64,000 bases of DNA. Source: Escherichia coli (GTDB taxonomy: Bacteria > Pseudomonadota > Gammaproteobacteria > Enterobacterales > Enterobacteriaceae). The position numbers and the translations under genes were made by a program. Of the stretch, positions 566 to 21,632 are shown one piece after another (the stretch's first letter is position 1; every line of letters starts with the position of its first letter). The notes beneath the pieces were generated by a model, which had not been told where the DNA came from, did no database searches, and saw nothing but the letters and a program-made list of their open reading frames with translations. Where the stretch lies: assembly GCF_003334405.1 (NCBI RefSeq), contig NZ_QOWM01000001.1; one strand, 5' to 3'.

Positions 566-575
566 TAAAAAGAAT

Positions 576-642
576 TCAGAATCAGGCCGGAGTGCTAAAT
601 ACTCCGTAAACACGGTCGTACATCCAGCCGGTAGCCTGATTC
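576..642 (+). promoter_or_regulatory. structured iscR-iscS intergenic RNA element (nested inverted repeats)
   Basis: Inner hairpin cggagt-gctaaat-actccg (588-606) enclosed by outer arms gaatcaggccgg / ccgg(ta)gcctgattc; lies in the iscRS intergenic region where sRNA-dependent differential operon decay is described. Confidence 0.4.
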
Positions 643-676
643 CTTGCATTGAGTGATGTACGGAGTTTATAGAGCA

Positions 677-7274: not shown

Positions 7275-8051
7275 ATGTCCGAAACAAAAAACGAACTTGA
7301 AGACCTGCTGGAAAAAGCAGCAACTGAACCGGCGCACCGCCCGGCCTTTTTCCGTACTCTACTGGAATCCACCGTCTGGGTGCCTGGTACGGCGGCGCAG
7401 GGCGAGGCTGTGGTTGAAGATAGCGCGCTTGATTTACAGCACTGGGAAAAAGAAGACGGCACCAGCGTCATTCCTTTTTTCACCTCGTTAGAAGCACTTC
7501 AACAGGCGGTTGAAGACGAACAGGCATTTGTCGTAATGCCCGTTCGCACGCTGTTTGAGATGACACTTGGCGAAACGCTCTTCCTTAATGCCAAACTGCC
7601 AACCGGTAAAGAATTTATGCCGCGTGAAATCAGTTTGTTGATTGGTGAAGAGGGAAATCCGCTGAGCAGCCAGGAAATCCTGGAAGGCGGTGAATCGCTG
7701 ATATTATCGGAAGTCGCAGAGCCGCCAGCACAAATGATTGATTCACTCACCACCTTATTTAAAACCATTAAGCCGGTGAAGCGTGCTTTTATTTGTTCAA
7801 TTAAAGAGAACGAAGAGGCACAGCCTAATTTACTTATTGGCATTGAAGCCGATGGTGATATCGAAGAAATTATTCAGGCGACGGGAAGTGTAGCGACCGA
7901 TACATTACCTGGCGATGAACCAATCGATATTTGTCAGGTGAAAAAAGGGGAAAAAGGAATTAGCCACTTTATTACCGAACATATTGCGCCATTCTATGAA
8001 CGTCGCTGGGGTGGTTTTTTGCGTGACTTTAAACAGAATCGGATAATCTAA
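7275..8051 (+). CDS. sseB: SseB (enhanced serine sensitivity protein)
   Basis: ORF 7266-8051 trimmed to ATG 7275 (258 aa, MSETKNELEDLLEK). Confidence 0.93.
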   Translation: MSETKNELEDLLEKAATEPAHRPAFFRTLLESTVWVPGTAAQGEAVVEDSALDLQHWEKEDGTSVIPFFTSLEALQQAVEDEQAFVVMPVRTLFEMTLGETLFLNAKLPTGKEFMPREISLLIGEEGNPLSSQEILEGGESLILSEVAEPPAQMIDSLTTLFKTIKPVKRAFICSIKENEEAQPNLLIGIEADGDIEEIIQATGSVATDTLPGDEPIDICQVKKGEKGISHFITEHIAPFYERRWGGFLRDFKQNRII

Positions 8052-8054
8052 AAT

Positions 8055-8080
8055 ATGCCGCCCAAAGGGCGGCATTCGGG
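8055..8080. terminator. bidirectional intrinsic terminator (sseB 3' end / small-ORF transcript 3' end)
   Basis: Hairpin atgccgccc-aaa-gggcggcat with U-rich flanks on both strands. Confidence 0.6.
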
Positions 8081-8081
8081 C

Positions 8082-8219
8082 TTACTTGCTGCTCTGAAGG
8101 TTGTTAACCACCAGTAAATTGTCGCCGGAGAGACTCCGGTTATTATTTACCTCGGTTAACAGCGCACCAGAAACAATAAGTACGATACAAAAGCACCGTA
8201 TCTTCATTGTGCGGTCCAT
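8082..8219 (-). CDS. small hydrophobic protein, candidate type I toxin-like (41 aa from ATG 8207, or 45 aa from ATG 8219); ryfA/timP-like
   Basis: Hand-translated minus-strand ORF (M)DRTMKIRCFCIVLIVSGALLTEVNNNRSLSGDNLLVVNNLQSSK*; hydrophobic N-terminal segment; absent from the >=60-aa ORF track; weak SD; location matches the ryfA locus between sseB and sseA as I recall it. Confidence 0.5.
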   Translation of the reverse strand: MDRTMKIRCFCIVLIVSGALLTEVNNNRSLSGDNLLVVNNLQSSK

Positions 8220-8335
8220 GCGAAGACCGCATCACGACAGCACCACTGGCGATATTGCCGCGATAGCAAGCGCTGTGAAACACCTGCATTTACGGCCACG
8301 GAACATCCTTTCCTAAAGCCAGCGCCCGTTTGCGA

Positions 8336-8532
8336 GACGGCGGAAAGGGCCGCAGTGGATAATACACTAACAGAACAATAATAACTCTCTTTTGCTTGAC
8401 AAAAAGAGAGTTACTGGCGAGTATTGTCTCCGCTGAGACGCGCTTGCATTACTACGGTAATACAACCTGCTGGAAAGGCCGCGAACCGGACCAGCAACAA
8501 AAAACCGCCTGATTTTGGCGGTTTTTTGTTTT
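8336..8532 (+). repeat. tandem duplicated sRNA-like module, copy 1
   Basis: About 195-bp unit beginning acggcggaaagggcc..., sharing ctctcttttgcttgacaaaaagagagttactgg and cctgctggaaaggccgcgaacc blocks with copy 2. Confidence 0.75.
8433..8532 (+). ncRNA. candidate small RNA (copy 1; diverged sibling), approx. bounds
   Basis: TTGACA at 8396-8401 with weak -10 about 17 bp downstream; strong intrinsic terminator aaaaaaccgcc-tgatttt-ggcgg + ttttttgtttttt (8498-8534); ryfB/ryfC-type by location. Confidence 0.4.
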
Positions 8533-8752
8533 TTAAAGGAAAGTGAATTTACATGTTTAAGTAATATCTTTTACCGGTTAGAATTTTTAATTTTGAGCAG
8601 GATTTGTTTATATTTGTCTGAATTCGGACTAATAAGCCAGGTTATTTTATTACCGAACACGGCGGAAAGGGCCGGTGTCGATAATACGCTAAATAAACAA
8701 TAATTACTCTCTTTTGCTTGACAAAAAGAGAGTTACTGGTGAGTATTGTTTT

Positions 8753-8857
8753 GCTGTGAAGCACCTGCGTTGCTCATGTAACACAAGTCAACCTGCTGGA
8801 AAGGCCGCGAACCAGACTAGCAATAAAAAACCGCCAAATTCGGCGGTTTTTTATTGC
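8753..8857 (+). ncRNA. candidate antitoxin-type small RNA (copy 2), approx. bounds
   Basis: Predicted 5' end gcugugaagcaccugcguu is complementary, with 2 G-U wobbles, to the small-ORF mRNA leader (plus-strand 8270-8291); terminator 8825-8856. Confidence 0.45.
8825..8856. terminator. bidirectional intrinsic terminator (sRNA copy 2 / sseA)
   Basis: aaaaaaccgcc-aaattc-ggcgg-tttttt with A-tract upstream; directly downstream of sseA stop on the minus strand. Confidence 0.7.
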
Positions 8858-8868
8858 CTGTAAAATAC

Positions 8869-9714
8869 TTATTTCACTGGCTCAACCGGTAAATCTGCCC
8901 GCGCGCCCCATTCACTCCATGCGCCGTCGTACAGTTTCACGTTTGGCACATCCAGCGTCGCGAGTGCTAACAAAACCACGGCTGCCGTTACACCAGAGCC
9001 GCAGCTGACGATAATTGGTTTGTCGTAGCTGACGCCGCGACCAAAAAATATCGCATCCAGTTCATCGGTCGTTTTTAGTTCGCCTTCGCGCACCAGTTCC
9101 GTCCACGGAACATTCAGTGCTCCGGGAATATGTCCGCGACGTAAACCTGGGCGAGGTTCATCAACTTCTGCGTTAAAACGTGCAGCCGGGCGGGCATCAA
9201 TAATTTGCGCCGTATTTTCATGGCTTGCCAATAATACATCGGTTACTTTCACCACGGCTTCAGGATTAAACGCGGCGTTAAACTCTCCTTCCGGCAGCTC
9301 TACTGCACCTTCTTCTAACAGCAGATCATCGCGCTGCCAGCCTGCAAGTCCACCCCCCAGAATCGACACTTTCTCTACACCAAAGGTGCGCAGCATCCAC
9401 CATGCTCGTGGGGCTGAGAAAAGATTACCTTCGTCATAGACAATCAGGTGCTTATCCTGGTTAACGCCTAATTCACGCATCGCCACGGCGAACGTTTCCG
9501 GGCGCGGCAGCATGTGCGGAAGCGGGGAAGTGTGATCAGAAAGCGCTTCGATATCAAAAAACACTGCGCCGGGAATATGTCCATTCAGATACTCCTGAGC
9601 AACGTTACGATCCTCCTGTCCAGGCGACGCCATGCGGGCATCGATAATCTGAATTTCCGGGTCATCAATATGTTCGGCGAGCCAGTCGGCTCCTACAAAC
9701 CATGTCGTGGACAT
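8869..9714 (-). CDS. sseA: 3-mercaptopyruvate sulfurtransferase SseA (rhodanese family)
   Basis: ORF 8869-9873 trimmed to ATG 9714 (281 aa, MSTTWFVGADWLAEHIDDPE); active-site CGSGVTA. Confidence 0.94.
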   Translation of the reverse strand: MSTTWFVGADWLAEHIDDPEIQIIDARMASPGQEDRNVAQEYLNGHIPGAVFFDIEALSDHTSPLPHMLPRPETFAVAMRELGVNQDKHLIVYDEGNLFSAPRAWWMLRTFGVEKVSILGGGLAGWQRDDLLLEEGAVELPEGEFNAAFNPEAVVKVTDVLLASHENTAQIIDARPAARFNAEVDEPRPGLRRGHIPGALNVPWTELVREGELKTTDELDAIFFGRGVSYDKPIIVSCGSGVTAAVVLLALATLDVPNVKLYDGAWSEWGARADLPVEPVK

Positions 9715-20403: not shown

Positions 20404-21522
20404 ATGCATAACCAGGCTCCAATTCAACGTAGAAAATCAACACGTATTTACGTTGGGAATGTGCCGATTGGCGATGGTGCTCCCATCGCCGTACAGTCCA
20501 TGACCAATACGCGTACGACAGACGTCGAAGCAACGGTCAATCAAATCAAGGCGCTGGAACGCGTTGGCGCTGATATCGTCCGTGTATCCGTACCGACGAT
20601 GGACGCGGCAGAAGCGTTCAAACTCATCAAACAGCAGGTTAACGTGCCGCTGGTGGCTGACATCCACTTCGACTATCGCATTGCGCTGAAAGTAGCGGAA
20701 TACGGCGTCGATTGTCTGCGTATTAACCCTGGCAATATCGGTAATGAAGAGCGTATTCGCATGGTGGTTGACTGTGCGCGCGATAAAAACATTCCGATCC
20801 GTATTGGCGTTAACGCCGGATCGCTGGAAAAAGATCTGCAAGAAAAGTATGGCGAACCGACGCCGCAGGCGTTGCTGGAATCTGCCATGCGTCATGTTGA
20901 TCATCTCGATCGCCTGAACTTCGATCAGTTCAAAGTCAGCGTGAAAGCGTCTGACGTCTTCCTCGCTGTTGAGTCTTATCGTTTGCTGGCAAAACAGATC
21001 GATCAGCCGTTGCATCTGGGGATCACCGAAGCCGGTGGTGCGCGCAGCGGGGCAGTAAAATCCGCCATTGGTTTAGGTCTGCTGCTGTCTGAAGGCATCG
21101 GCGACACGCTGCGCGTATCGCTGGCGGCCGATCCGGTCGAAGAGATCAAAGTCGGTTTCGATATTTTGAAATCGCTGCGTATCCGTTCGCGAGGGATCAA
21201 CTTCATCGCCTGCCCGACCTGTTCGCGTCAGGAATTTGATGTTATCGGTACGGTTAACGCGCTGGAGCAACGCCTGGAAGATATCATCACTCCGATGGAC
21301 GTTTCGATTATCGGCTGCGTGGTGAATGGCCCAGGTGAGGCGCTGGTTTCTACACTCGGCGTCACCGGCGGCAACAAGAAAAGCGGCCTCTATGAAGATG
21401 GCGTGCGCAAAGACCGTCTGGACAACAACGATATGATCGACCAGCTGGAAGCACGCATTCGTGCGAAAGCCAGTCAGCTGGACGAAGCGCGTCGAATTGA
21501 CGTTCAGCAGGTTGAAAAATAA
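20404..21522 (+). CDS. ispG: 4-hydroxy-3-methylbut-2-enyl diphosphate synthase IspG
   Basis: 372-aa [26 protein letters not shown]; Cys motif ACPTCSR. Confidence 0.96.
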
Positions 21523-21632
21523 TAACGTGATGGGAAGCGCCTCGCTTCCCGTGTATGATTGAACCCGCATGGCTCCCGAAACATTGAGGGAAGCGTTGAG
21601 GGTTCATTTTTATATTCAGAAAGAGAATAAAC

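What the first reader, a model, noticed from the sequence alone, without database searches (positions are those of the whole stretch)
8336..8857. Tandem duplication of a promoter-sRNA-terminator module on the plus strand, opposite the small ORF
Two copies of a roughly 200-bp unit (8336-8532 and 8651-8857) share a TTGACA-containing block and a 3' block cctgctggaaaggccgcgaacc, each ending in a strong A-tract/hairpin/U-tract terminator. They are separated by an AT-rich spacer (8533-8650). The copies have diverged in their middle, the predicted 5' part of each transcript. This is a sibling-sRNA arrangement; I recall ryfB/ryfC annotations here but cannot verify their coordinates or strands.
Basis: seen in the sequence. 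Interest (0 to 1): 0.5.

Follow-up and report, generated by a model that had tools for sequence, protein, structure and literature searches.

The report
Two TimR antitoxin RNA genes
The repeat is real: it is two copies of the small antitoxin RNA gene (TimR, called RyfB in Shigella) that guards the toxin gene timP/ryfA, a known system, but the copy beside the toxin gene has the wrong recognition sequence and the matching copy is a leftover from a second, decayed module.

Summary
Units 8337-8530 and 8659-8857 are 82% identical: 90% in the promoter block, 86% in the 3' part and only 55% in the 5' part of the RNA. Both plus-strand RNAs exist in K-12, with published 5' and 3' ends at 8430/8529 and 3' end 8854.

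They are two TimR/RyfB-type antitoxin sRNA genes of the timP (ryfA) type I toxin-antitoxin locus.
- **Unit 2** is the annotated timR (b4811).
- **Unit 1** is unannotated and was published as IS129/ECS011.

It is not a simple sRNA duplication. Strains with two full modules show that unit 2 is what remains of a second timP-timR module. Its toxin gene was deleted, leaving a 14-nt sseB tag and the dead timP promoter.

The divergent "middle" is the target-recognition domain, which comes in allelic classes.
- K-12 timP (class A) matches distal TimR2: 19 contiguous pairs.
- Proximal TimR1 is class C. It is a perfect match to timP of other strains but an interrupted match here.
- About 30% of 5,426 complete E. 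coli genomes share this mismatch.
- Essentially every class-A timP has a class-A TimR nearby.

The family is known. The shuffled pairing seems undescribed, and its functional meaning is inferred.

The parts
8050..8353 (-). timP mRNA (ryfA RNA), the toxin transcript of the type I toxin-antitoxin locus
   Evidence: Rfam RF00126 ryfA, 314.9 bits, E = 9.5e-87, full model. RefSeq annotates ryfA b4440 at the corresponding K-12 coordinates. The Term-seq 3' end lies at window 8051.
8082..8207 (-). TimP small toxic inner-membrane protein ORF (41 aa), the 'small ORF' of the finding
   Evidence: RefSeq timP b4812. [quoted passage not shown] The ORF is listed (8082..8219 with an upstream ATG).
8272..8294 (-). 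TimR-binding site in the timP 5'UTR (stem-loop 2), class A allele (variable pentamer UGUUU)
   Evidence: It pairs with the TimR2 5' end over 19 contiguous base pairs. The position corresponds to the SL2 site mapped in Salmonella (PMC7667032; PMC11228461). It is the 'variable region' TGTTT of Fris 2017.
8354..8429 (.). Divergent promoter region of unit 1. TimR1 promoter: -35 TTGACA 8396-8401, 17-bp spacer, -10 GAGTAT 8419-8424. The timP promoter lies on the other strand, with -35 TTGTCA 8402..8397 overlapping back-to-back.
   Evidence: Read from the sequence. The minus-strand promoter-like site 8402..8375 was called. The RNA 5' end at 8430 lies 6 nt after GAGTAT. The TTGACA-17-(-10) layout is conserved in Yersinia, Rahnella, Erwinia and Citrobacter homologues.
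8430..8529 (+). TimR1: unannotated TimR/RyfB-family sRNA (= IS129 / ECS011). Class C recognition domain at 8430-8449, SL1 8444-8465, invariant SL2 8468-8496, terminator 8497-8529.
   Evidence: ECS011 reads span 8430-8500, and a strand-specific northern gave ~95/100-nt bands. The Term-seq 3' end at 8529 was found in LB 0.4, LB 2.0 and M63, with 107037, 48011 and 208460 reads. Fold z = -4.15. The 5' domain is identical to that of class-C strains and E. whittamii.
8531..8645 (.). AT-rich spacer (27% G+C) of unknown origin, marking the junction of the ancestral module duplication
   Evidence: Composition is. It is collinear with the spacer of two-module strains. It is absent from single-module strains and from all outgroup loci, and has no other copy in the window.
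8646..8659 (+). 14-nt relic of the duplicated 3' end of sseB (TTTATTACCGAACA), the left edge of the deletion that removed timP2
   Evidence: It is an exact repeat of 7968-7981 inside sseB (D4). In two-module strains the same 14-mer continues into an 87-bp partial sseB followed by a second timP. The 14-mer is conserved in sseB of other Escherichia and Citrobacter.
8660..8752 (.). Relic of the timP2 5' end (8660-~8675) with its promoter, plus the TimR2 promoter (-35 TTGACA 8718-8723, -10 GAGTAT 8741-8746)
   Evidence: It is 90% identical to 8338-8427. A minus-strand promoter-like site 8724..8697 was called. The SNP pattern matches the class-A module of strain GF131.
8753..8854 (+). TimR2 = annotated timR (b4811): class A recognition domain, cognate to the resident timP. 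Its terminator is bidirectional and also sits 15 nt past the sseA stop codon.
   Evidence: RefSeq ncRNA timR lies at window 8753-8852. The Term-seq 3' end at 8854 was found in M63 only, with 34005 reads. Fold z = -3.86. It forms 19 contiguous pairs with the timP site, duplex -42.6 kcal/mol.
8485..8693 (-). Rfam 'IS128' match. I read it as the predicted run-off from the dead timP2 promoter, through the sseB tag and spacer, to the back side of the TimR1 terminator.
   Evidence: RF00125, 262.1 bits. There were no reads and no northern signal with a strand-specific probe, and the authors called it an artefact or condition-specific. Term-seq lists the 8529 end as 'antisense to IS128'.

Best explanation
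The two units are paralogous genes for TimR (RyfB)-type antitoxin sRNAs of the timP/ryfA type I toxin-antitoxin locus between sseB and sseA.

**How a TimR RNA is built and works.** Each unit makes a ~100-nt RNA from a TTGACA/GAGTAT promoter. The RNA has four parts:
- a single-stranded 5' recognition domain;
- a small variable hairpin;
- an invariant hairpin (GCUGG-AAAGGCCGC..ACC-CCAGC);
- a bidirectional intrinsic terminator.

In this family the 5' domain pairs with stem-loop 2 of the timP 5'UTR and blocks TimP translation by disturbing the leader's pseudoknot. This was shown in Salmonella and is inferred here.

**Unit 2 (TimR2, the annotated timR).** It carries the recognition domain that matches the resident timP (class A). 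It is the surviving antitoxin of a second timP-timR module whose toxin gene was deleted.

**Unit 1 (TimR1, unannotated, = IS129/ECS011).** It sits in the canonical divergent position next to timP and gives the stronger 3'-end signal. Its recognition domain is class C, which is perfectly complementary to timP alleles of other E. coli lineages and only interruptedly complementary to the K-12 allele. A recombination breakpoint between 8329 and 8353 separates a class-A timP body from a class-C promoter/TimR segment.

**Most likely division of labour (inferred).** TimR2 is the effective repressor of K-12 TimP. TimR1 is a non-cognate, at best weakly cross-reacting, paralogue.
For: **Shown here:**
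- *Repeat and motifs:*.
- *Family membership:* ryfA/timP lies divergently adjacent. Homologous single TimR genes with the same promoter spacing, domain order and terminator occur next to ryfA in Yersinia, Rahnella, Erwinia, Citrobacter, Superficieibacter and E. whittamii. The consensus structure shows compensatory changes in SL1 and the terminator.
- *Origin:* K-12 7900-8659 is collinear with strain GF131 through spacer and sseB tag. GF131 then continues with partial sseB, a second timP and a second TimR.
- *Specificity (duplex energies):* cognate pairs give -41 to -44 kcal/mol with 16-19 contiguous pairs. timP(A) x TimR1(C) gives -33.7 with helices of 5, 2, 11, 6 and 3 pairs.
- *Specificity (cofold net energies):* cognate pairs -20.8 to -23.9. 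timP(A)+TimR1(C) -14.2. Other non-cognate pairs -7 to -12.
- *Mosaic:* K-12 equals the class-A strain left of ~8330 and is identical to class-C strain LP50-1 from 8339 to 8492.
- *Population:* 1,653 of 5,426 genomes have a class-A site beside TimR(C). 1,981 genomes have a class-A site together with TimR(A), against 1,975 genomes with a class-A site at all.

**From papers:**
- Both RNAs are expressed with the predicted ends.
- TimR pairs through its 5' end with the timP 5'UTR and inhibits translation, with compensatory mutants (PMC7667032), through SL2 and the pseudoknot (PMC11228461).
- In S. dysenteriae, RyfB1 (class B by its cloning primer) lowers RyfA1 but not RyfA2 (class A). So a class mismatch of similar predicted strength (-12.0) was ineffective in vivo.
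Against: - No experiment in K-12 separates the two sRNAs.
- TimR1 gives far more 3'-end reads than TimR2, which is listed in one of three conditions only. TimR2 was not among the candidates of the 2011 deep-sequencing study.
- Because the class-A site is U-rich, G-U wobbles let TimR1 form 24-27 pairs with it. An abundant TimR1 could therefore still repress.
- The Shigella specificity test measured RNA levels, not translation.
- In the co-occurrence test, 'nearby' means within ~550 nt. Counts come from BLAST thresholds, not from a per-genome table.
- The order of evolutionary events (conversion, import, deletion) is not resolved.
Confidence: 0.8

Rival explanations
1. Simple local tandem duplication of a promoter-sRNA-terminator cassette, followed by neutral drift of the 5' part. 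This gives two redundant sibling sRNAs.
For: There are two ~200-bp direct repeats with conserved promoter and 3' blocks and a divergent middle.
Against: - Unit 2 is preceded by a 14-nt sseB fragment and the first nucleotides of a timP leader. Strains with two complete modules are collinear with K-12 up to that point.
- The two 5' domains are not drifted copies. Each is near-identical to alleles found as single copies, with a matching timP site, in other lineages and species: class C in E. whittamii, and class B, the closest relative of class A, in Escherichia sp. E1V33.
Confidence: 0.07
2. TimR1, the promoter-proximal and abundant copy, is the working antitoxin of K-12 timP through wobble-tolerant pairing. 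TimR2 is a redundant relic that persists only because its terminator also serves sseA.
For: - TimR1 3'-end counts are 107037, 48011 and 208460, against TimR2 detected only in M63 at 34005.
- ECS011 was among the most abundant new sRNAs in 2011 while TimR2 was not listed.
- Predicted timP(A)-TimR1 duplex is -33.7 kcal/mol with an 11-bp helix.
- The TimR2 terminator lies 15 nt from the sseA stop.
Against: - Net binding energy is about 7 kcal/mol weaker than for cognate pairs.
- A mismatch of equal predicted strength was ineffective in Shigella.
- Essentially all ~1,975 genomes with a class-A timP keep a class-A recognition domain, not just a terminator. A second strain type, timP(D)-TimR(A')-spacer-TimR(D), repeats the 'cognate copy is distal' pattern.
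Confidence: 0.2
3. The real gene of the region is the minus-strand IS128 RNA (Rfam RF00125). The plus-strand repeats are only its promoter and terminator context.
For: There is a full-length, high-scoring Rfam match at 8693..8485. A promoter-like site (8724..8697) lies upstream and a bidirectional terminator downstream.
Against: - There were zero reads and no northern signal with a strand-specific probe, while the opposite strand was detected.
- Term-seq ends are on the plus strand of the window.
- The IS128 interval is a chimera of dead timP2 leader, sseB tag and spacer. It exists only in strains with this rearrangement, and was reported as variable among E. coli in PMC3318445.
Confidence: 0.03

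Closest known systems
TimR-timP of Salmonella enterica (Andresen 2020, PMC7667032; Eleftheraki & Holmqvist 2024, PMC11228461)
   Same: - Same locus, between sseB and sseA.
- Same divergent arrangement.
- A ~100-nt sRNA whose 5' end pairs with SL2 of the timP 5'UTR.
- Homologous 3' domain and terminator.
   Different: Salmonella is described with one TimR. K-12 has two. The one in the canonical divergent position does not match the resident toxin mRNA, and the matching one lies 400 bp away behind a spacer.
RyfA1/RyfB1 and RyfA2/RyfB2 sibling modules of Shigella dysenteriae (Fris 2017, PMC5333039)
   Same: - The same family and the same duplicated architecture: sseB - module - spacer - partial sseB - module - sseA.
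- The same 'variable region' classes (TGTTT, CACCC, CGCGT).
- sRNA specificity for its own partner was shown.
   Different: In Shigella both toxin RNAs are kept and each sRNA sits next to its partner. K-12 has lost one toxin gene and carries a class-C sRNA beside a class-A toxin gene.
AgrA/AgrB-DinQ of E. coli (own knowledge: Weel-Sneve et al. 2013)
   Same: Two adjacent homologous sRNAs are encoded divergently from a type I toxin gene, and only one of them (AgrB) is an effective repressor.
   Different: The sequences are unrelated. There is no relic of a second toxin gene, and no known population of interchangeable specificity classes. This resemblance is recalled from memory and was not tested here.
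Sib/Ibs and Zor/Orz multi-copy type I systems (own knowledge: Fozo 2008; Wen 2014)
   Same: Tandem or repeated toxin-antitoxin modules in which short recognition domains make each sRNA discriminate its cognate toxin mRNA.
   Different: Sib RNAs are true cis-antisense RNAs. In those systems the cognate pairs stay physically coupled, whereas here recombination has uncoupled them.
IS128 (Rfam RF00125) / IS129 / ECS011 / C0614, historical sRNA candidates of this intergenic region
   Same: They have the same coordinates. ECS011/IS129 is TimR1. C0614 (8670-8756) covers the TimR2 promoter. IS128 is the opposite strand of the spacer.
   Different: None of these names links the RNAs to the TimR family or to each other. 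IS128 itself was not detectable.

Membership tests
TimR/RyfB antitoxin sRNA of the timPR type I toxin-antitoxin system | Encoded next to and divergently from timP (ryfA), between sseB and sseA | tested here: met
   Unit 1 lies 77 nt upstream of the ryfA 5' end on the opposite strand. Unit 2 lies divergently from a truncated timP2 5' end (8660-~8675), which is a complete timP in two-module strains.
TimR/RyfB antitoxin sRNA of the timPR type I toxin-antitoxin system | Discrete ~100-nt transcript with its own promoter and intrinsic terminator | tested here: met
   The sequence shows TTGACA-17-GAGTAT and an A-tract/hairpin/U-tract in both units. Published ends are 5' 8430 with 3' 8529, and 3' 8854. 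The 5' end of TimR2 rests on the RefSeq annotation only.
TimR/RyfB antitoxin sRNA of the timPR type I toxin-antitoxin system | Sequence and structure homology to TimR of other Enterobacterales | tested here: met
   BLAST matches lie next to ryfA in 15 loci. In the 13-sequence alignment the SL2 block is invariant, and compensatory pairs occur in SL1 and the terminator. Salmonella TimR itself was not retrieved.
TimR/RyfB antitoxin sRNA of the timPR type I toxin-antitoxin system | 5' end has a long continuous complementarity (about 16-18 nt) to SL2 of the resident timP 5'UTR | tested here: met
   This row is for TimR2 (unit 2). It forms 19 contiguous pairs including G-U, -42.6 kcal/mol.
TimR/RyfB antitoxin sRNA of the timPR type I toxin-antitoxin system | Same feature, for TimR1 (unit 1) against the resident timP | tested here: not met
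   Pairing is interrupted into helices of 5, 2, 11, 6 and 3 pairs, -33.7 kcal/mol. The net cofold energy is -14.2 against about -21 to -24 for cognate pairs. The feature is met against class-C timP alleles of other strains, with 17 nt exact. TimR1 is therefore a family member by descent but not a matched partner of its neighbour.
TimR/RyfB antitoxin sRNA of the timPR type I toxin-antitoxin system | Represses TimP translation / rescues TimP toxicity | not testable with these tools
   Shown for Salmonella TimR. Not done for either K-12 copy in any paper found.
Sibling sRNAs (adjacent homologous sRNA genes) | Two neighbouring, independently transcribed, homologous sRNA genes | tested here: met
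   Each unit has its own promoter and terminator, and separate 3' ends were mapped.
   RefSeq features between sseA and sseB are timR, ryfA and timP only. Rfam finds only ryfA and IS128 here. That K-12 ryfB/ryfC equals shoB/ohsC elsewhere on the chromosome is my own knowledge.
IS128 RNA (Rfam RF00125) | Match to the covariance model above the gathering score | tested here: met
   262.1 bits against a gathering score of 80, at 8693..8485.
IS128 RNA (Rfam RF00125) | A transcript on that strand | tested here: not met
   Literature only: 0 reads and no band with a strand-specific probe. No Term-seq end was reported on that strand in the interval.

The most novel reading that the evidence does not exclude
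In K-12-type E. coli (about 30% of complete genomes), recombination has placed a foreign-class TimR (class C) next to a class-A toxin gene. The lineage tolerates this only because the class-A antitoxin of a decayed second module is retained. That would be a chromosomal case of 'antitoxin addiction' to an orphan sRNA. The abundant, partner-less TimR1 would then be free to act on other mRNAs. This would fit the APEC result that ryfA-deletion phenotypes disappear when timR is also deleted (PMC13188913).
Probability: 0.25. Interest if true: 0.6.

Novelty: new member of a known kind. Interest (0 to 1): 0.4.

Why it matters
- **Annotation.** K-12 carries two TimR-family genes. RefSeq/EcoCyc lists only the distal one as 'putative'. 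The proximal one has the stronger mapped 3'-end signal but survives only under the obsolete names IS129/ECS011.
- **Rfam.** The family IS128 appears to model the non-transcribed strand of a rearrangement scar.
- **Experiments.** Anyone deleting 'timR' in E. coli must know which copy and which class is removed. Strains differ: one module, two modules, or module plus orphan, in at least four specificity classes. This may underlie the conflicting RyfA/TimR phenotypes reported for K-12, UPEC, APEC and Shigella.
- **Biology.** The locus is a compact natural experiment on how short recognition domains keep type I toxin-antitoxin pairs specific, and on what happens when recombination shuffles them.

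Tried and rejected
- **Full-length RNAduplex of the sRNAs against ryfA** gave artefactual 90-nt duplexes. I replaced it with site-restricted duplexes and cofold.
- **The promoter/terminator scanner** did not call the two plus-strand terminators. The likely reason is that its longest-stem rule absorbs the U-tract. I relied on inverted repeats, folding and Term-seq instead.
- **TSS data.** Thomason 2015 is not held. The Cappable-seq supplement had no matching coordinates. The TimR2 5' end therefore rests on RefSeq, and the timP TSS and which of two -10 candidates it uses stay unresolved.
- **The single genome-contig scan** used a GC-rich palindromic ryfA motif. Fifteen Enterobacterales loci were still usable.
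- **A second complementarity**, between the invariant TimR SL2 loop (GGAAAGGCCGC) and the timP 5' end (GCGGCCCUUUCC), was tested against shuffles. It is not significant, with 32-101 of 300 shuffles as good.
- **The spacer** was searched against outgroup loci and the window for an origin. Nothing was found beyond the sseB 14-mer.
- **Supplements of the Salmonella paper** held no text on E. coli copies.
- **The exact order of events** that produced the K-12 mosaic was considered and left open. At least two events are needed.
Full report
**1. What is in the sequence**

The window is an E. coli K-12-type chromosome read in reverse. A 4,001-nt stretch equals NC_000913.3 2652000-2656000 except for one base at 8606. 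The conversion is K-12 coordinate = 2662208 - window coordinate.

Features between sseB (ending at 8051, plus strand) and sseA (ending at 8869, minus strand):

| Window coordinates | Strand | Feature |
|---|---|---|
| 8353..8050 | - | ryfA RNA, now called timP mRNA (Rfam, 314.9 bits) |
| 8207..8082 | - | TimP ORF, 41 codons |
| 8337-8530 | + | repeat unit 1 |
| 8531-8645 | . | spacer, 27% G+C |
| 8659-8857 | + | repeat unit 2 |

The repeat is as described. Identity is 90% over the promoter block, 86% over the 3' part, 55% in between and 82% overall. The shared 21-mer occurs exactly twice in the window, against none in shuffles.

**2. Both plus-strand RNAs exist**

- Term-seq of MG1655 lists dominant 3' ends at window 8529 in LB OD 0.4, LB OD 2.0 and M63 (107037, 48011 and 208460 reads) and at 8854 in M63 (34005 reads) (PMC7815308). 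Both lie after the U-tracts.
- A 2011 small-RNA sequencing study found ECS011, whose sequence is exactly window 8430-8500.
- A 35-nt strand-specific probe on its 5' part gave bands of ~95 and ~100 nt. The authors equated ECS011 with the older candidate IS129.
- The same study could not detect the opposite-strand IS128 (PMC3175480).
- RefSeq annotates 'putative small regulatory RNA TimR' (b4811) at window 8753-8852, which is unit 2 only.
- Each RNA folds into the same four elements, with z-scores -4.15 and -3.86.

**3. What they are**

[quoted passage not shown] The divergently encoded sRNA TimR pairs through its 5' end with the timP 5'UTR and blocks translation. This was shown in Salmonella with compensatory mutants and in vitro translation (PMC7667032). 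The site is stem-loop 2, and binding disturbs a pseudoknot needed for initiation (PMC11228461).

In Shigella dysenteriae the same RNAs are RyfA1/RyfA2 and RyfB1/RyfB2 (PMC5333039).

I found single TimR homologues next to ryfA in Yersinia, Rahnella, Erwinia, Citrobacter, Superficieibacter and E. whittamii. All have the same -35/-10 spacing, domain order and terminator.

A 13-sequence alignment gives this consensus:
- a free 5' segment;
- a small hairpin with compensatory changes;
- an invariant hairpin, GCUGG-AAAGGCCGC..ACC-CCAGC;
- a terminator with compensatory changes.

Both units are therefore TimR-family genes.

**4. Not a simple sRNA duplication**

Unit 2 is preceded by TTTATTACCGAACA (8646-8659), an exact copy of 7968-7981 inside sseB.

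Strain GF131 has sseB - timP - TimR - spacer - 87-bp partial sseB - timP - TimR - sseA. K-12 7900-8659 aligns collinearly with it at 93.5%, through the spacer and the 14-mer. There GF131 continues into sseB' and a second timP, while K-12 jumps to CGGCGGAAAGGG, the start of a timP leader.

So K-12 descends from a two-module locus. About 356 bp, covering the rest of sseB' and nearly all of timP2, were deleted.

Architectures found among E. coli strains:

| Architecture | Example loci |
|---|---|
| Single module | LP50-1, O157 |
| Module + spacer + a different orphan TimR | L004, L129, L130 |
| Two full modules | L002, L128 |
| IS elements inserted in the locus | L126, L127, L131 |

All sampled outgroups have one module.

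**5. The divergent middle is the recognition domain, in allelic classes**

Comparing the timP SL2 sites with the TimR 5' ends gives matched classes:

| Class | Plus-strand site sequence | Where found |
|---|---|---|
| A | GCTGTGAAACACCTGC | K-12 timP, K-12 TimR2, GF131 module 1 |
| B | CACTGTGGGGTGCCTG | O157, GF131 module 2, Escherichia sp. E1V33 |
| C | GCTGAGACGCGCTTGC | LP50-1, L004, E. whittamii, and K-12 TimR1 |
| D | GACGAGATACACTTGC | L127 timP; orphan TimR in L004, L129, L130 |

The timP side of classes A, B and C matches variable-region variants TGTTT, CACCC and CGCGT already listed by Fris et al..

Predicted pairing energies in kcal/mol:

| Pair | Site-restricted duplex | Net cofold energy |
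|---|---|---|
| Cognate pairs | -41 to -44 (16-19 contiguous pairs) | -20.8 to -23.9 |
| K-12 timP(A) x TimR1(C) | -33.7 (interrupted) | -14.2 |
| timP(A) x TimR(B) | -33.7 | -12.0 |
| Other non-cognate pairs | -12 to -26 | -7 to -11 |

The B-on-A combination was tested in Shigella. RyfB1 is class B by its cloning primer. It lowered RyfA1 but not RyfA2.

**6. K-12 is a mosaic**

- In a seven-way alignment, K-12 follows the class-A allele up to ~8329.
- It is then identical to class-C strain LP50-1 from 8339 to 8492.
- Unit 2 carries the class-A promoter and 5'-domain SNP pattern joined to the sseA-type terminator.
- The breakpoint (8329-8353) falls between the toxin's target site and the antitoxin's recognition domain. 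It uncouples the proximal pair.
- Strain L127 shows the same logic with other classes: timP(D) - TimR(A') - spacer - TimR(D).

**7. Population counts (5,426 complete E. coli genomes)**

| Probe | Genomes |
|---|---|
| TimR(C) domain | 4,550 |
| timP(C) site | 2,983 |
| TimR(A) domain | 2,146 |
| timP(A) site at >=95% identity | 1,975 |
| K-12 junction (spacer / sseB tag / unit 2) | 1,876 |
| Class-A site joined to TimR(C) | 1,653 (30%) |
| Class-A site joined to TimR(A) | 1,981 |

Essentially every class-A toxin gene therefore keeps a class-A antitoxin nearby. These are BLAST counts, not a per-genome table.

**8. Mechanism, and what is shown versus inferred**

*Shown:*
- two expressed TimR-family RNAs;
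- the deletion scar;
- the class structure;
- the mosaic;
- the population frequencies.

*Inferred:*
- TimR2 is the effective repressor of K-12 TimP.
- TimR1 is non-cognate, at best weakly cross-reacting.
- The distal copy is retained by selection.

*Against the inference:* TimR1 gives much stronger 3'-end signals than TimR2, and G-U wobbles allow substantial pairing with the U-rich class-A site. I therefore give 0.2 to the rival that TimR1 is the working antitoxin.

[quoted passage not shown] This hints that an unpaired TimR can act elsewhere. That underlies the novel case.

**9. Comparison with what is known, and novelty**

- The system (timPR, also RyfA/RyfB) is known.
- Sibling modules are known in Shigella.
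- Both K-12 RNAs have been seen before under unrelated names.
- In the papers searched, none states that K-12 has two TimR genes, that the annotated one is a relic of a second module, or that the proximal one is mismatched.
- I file it as a new member of a known kind, with moderate interest.

Noticed in passing
window 8485-8693 (-): The Rfam family IS128 (RF00125) matches at 262 bits. The interval is a chimera of dead timP2 leader, sseB tag, spacer and the back of the TimR1 terminator. Published strand-specific probing found no such RNA. The family may model a non-transcribed strand.
   Followed up: partly
window 8384-8411 and 8706-8733: A 28-nt palindrome, ACTCTCTTTTGCTTGACAAAAAGAGAGT, holds the TimR -35 (TTGACA) and a minus-strand TTGTCA offset by one base. 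Toxin and antitoxin promoters may therefore share one -35 region or a common regulator site. It is kept in class A and C modules and in E. whittamii, but is altered in class B modules.
   Followed up: partly
window 8268 (-), = K-12 2653940 (+): Term-seq lists a minor 3' end (857 reads, LB OD 0.4) inside the timP leader at nt 86, four nucleotides past the TimR2 pairing region. It could be a cleavage or pause product linked to sRNA binding.
   Followed up: no
L107 8025-8125 (Citrobacter amalonaticus) and L075 4526-4615 (Yersinia similis): In these genomes the reverse complement of a TimR-like gene, terminator included, abuts ryfA at about nt 80. No room is left for the usual leader start and promoters. 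Rfam still aligns the region as a full ryfA. This looks like an inversion or deletion between the sRNA recognition domain and its target site, and it shows how similar antisense TimR is to the timP leader.
   Followed up: partly
L126 1493-2539; L127 1756-2214; L131 1673-2921: IS481-family, IS200/IS605 and IS3-family elements are inserted within or beside the timP-timR intergenic region in different E. coli strains. The locus is a hotspot of rearrangement.
   Followed up: no
L127 1140-1650 and L004 1600-1760: There is a fourth specificity class (D). It has its own promoter variant (TTGACATCGTTGATGCATAAAGCGAGTAT) and a shortened sRNA lacking most of hairpin 1. It is a full partner of timP in L127 and an orphan in L004, L129 and L130.
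   Followed up: partly
window 8468-8496 / 8794-8822 versus 8342-8353: The invariant TimR hairpin loop (GGAAAGGCCGC) can pair with the first 12 nt of timP mRNA (GCGGCCCUUUCC). The energy is not better than for shuffled blocks (32-101 of 300 as good), so it is unsupported as a second contact.
   Followed up: yes
window 8606: This is the only difference from MG1655 in 4 kb: G here, A in MG1655. It lies in the AT-rich spacer, so the window is from a K-12-like strain that is not MG1655 itself.
   Followed up: yes
window 8670-8756 (+): The old microarray candidate C0614 maps onto the TimR2 promoter and ends 3 nt into TimR2. It is probably an imprecise early sighting of TimR2.
   Followed up: no
window 566-675 (+) and 21522-21613 (+): Ordinary Rfam matches to the iscR stability element (138 bits) and SroE (117 bits). 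They are consistent with the K-12 map position.
   Followed up: no
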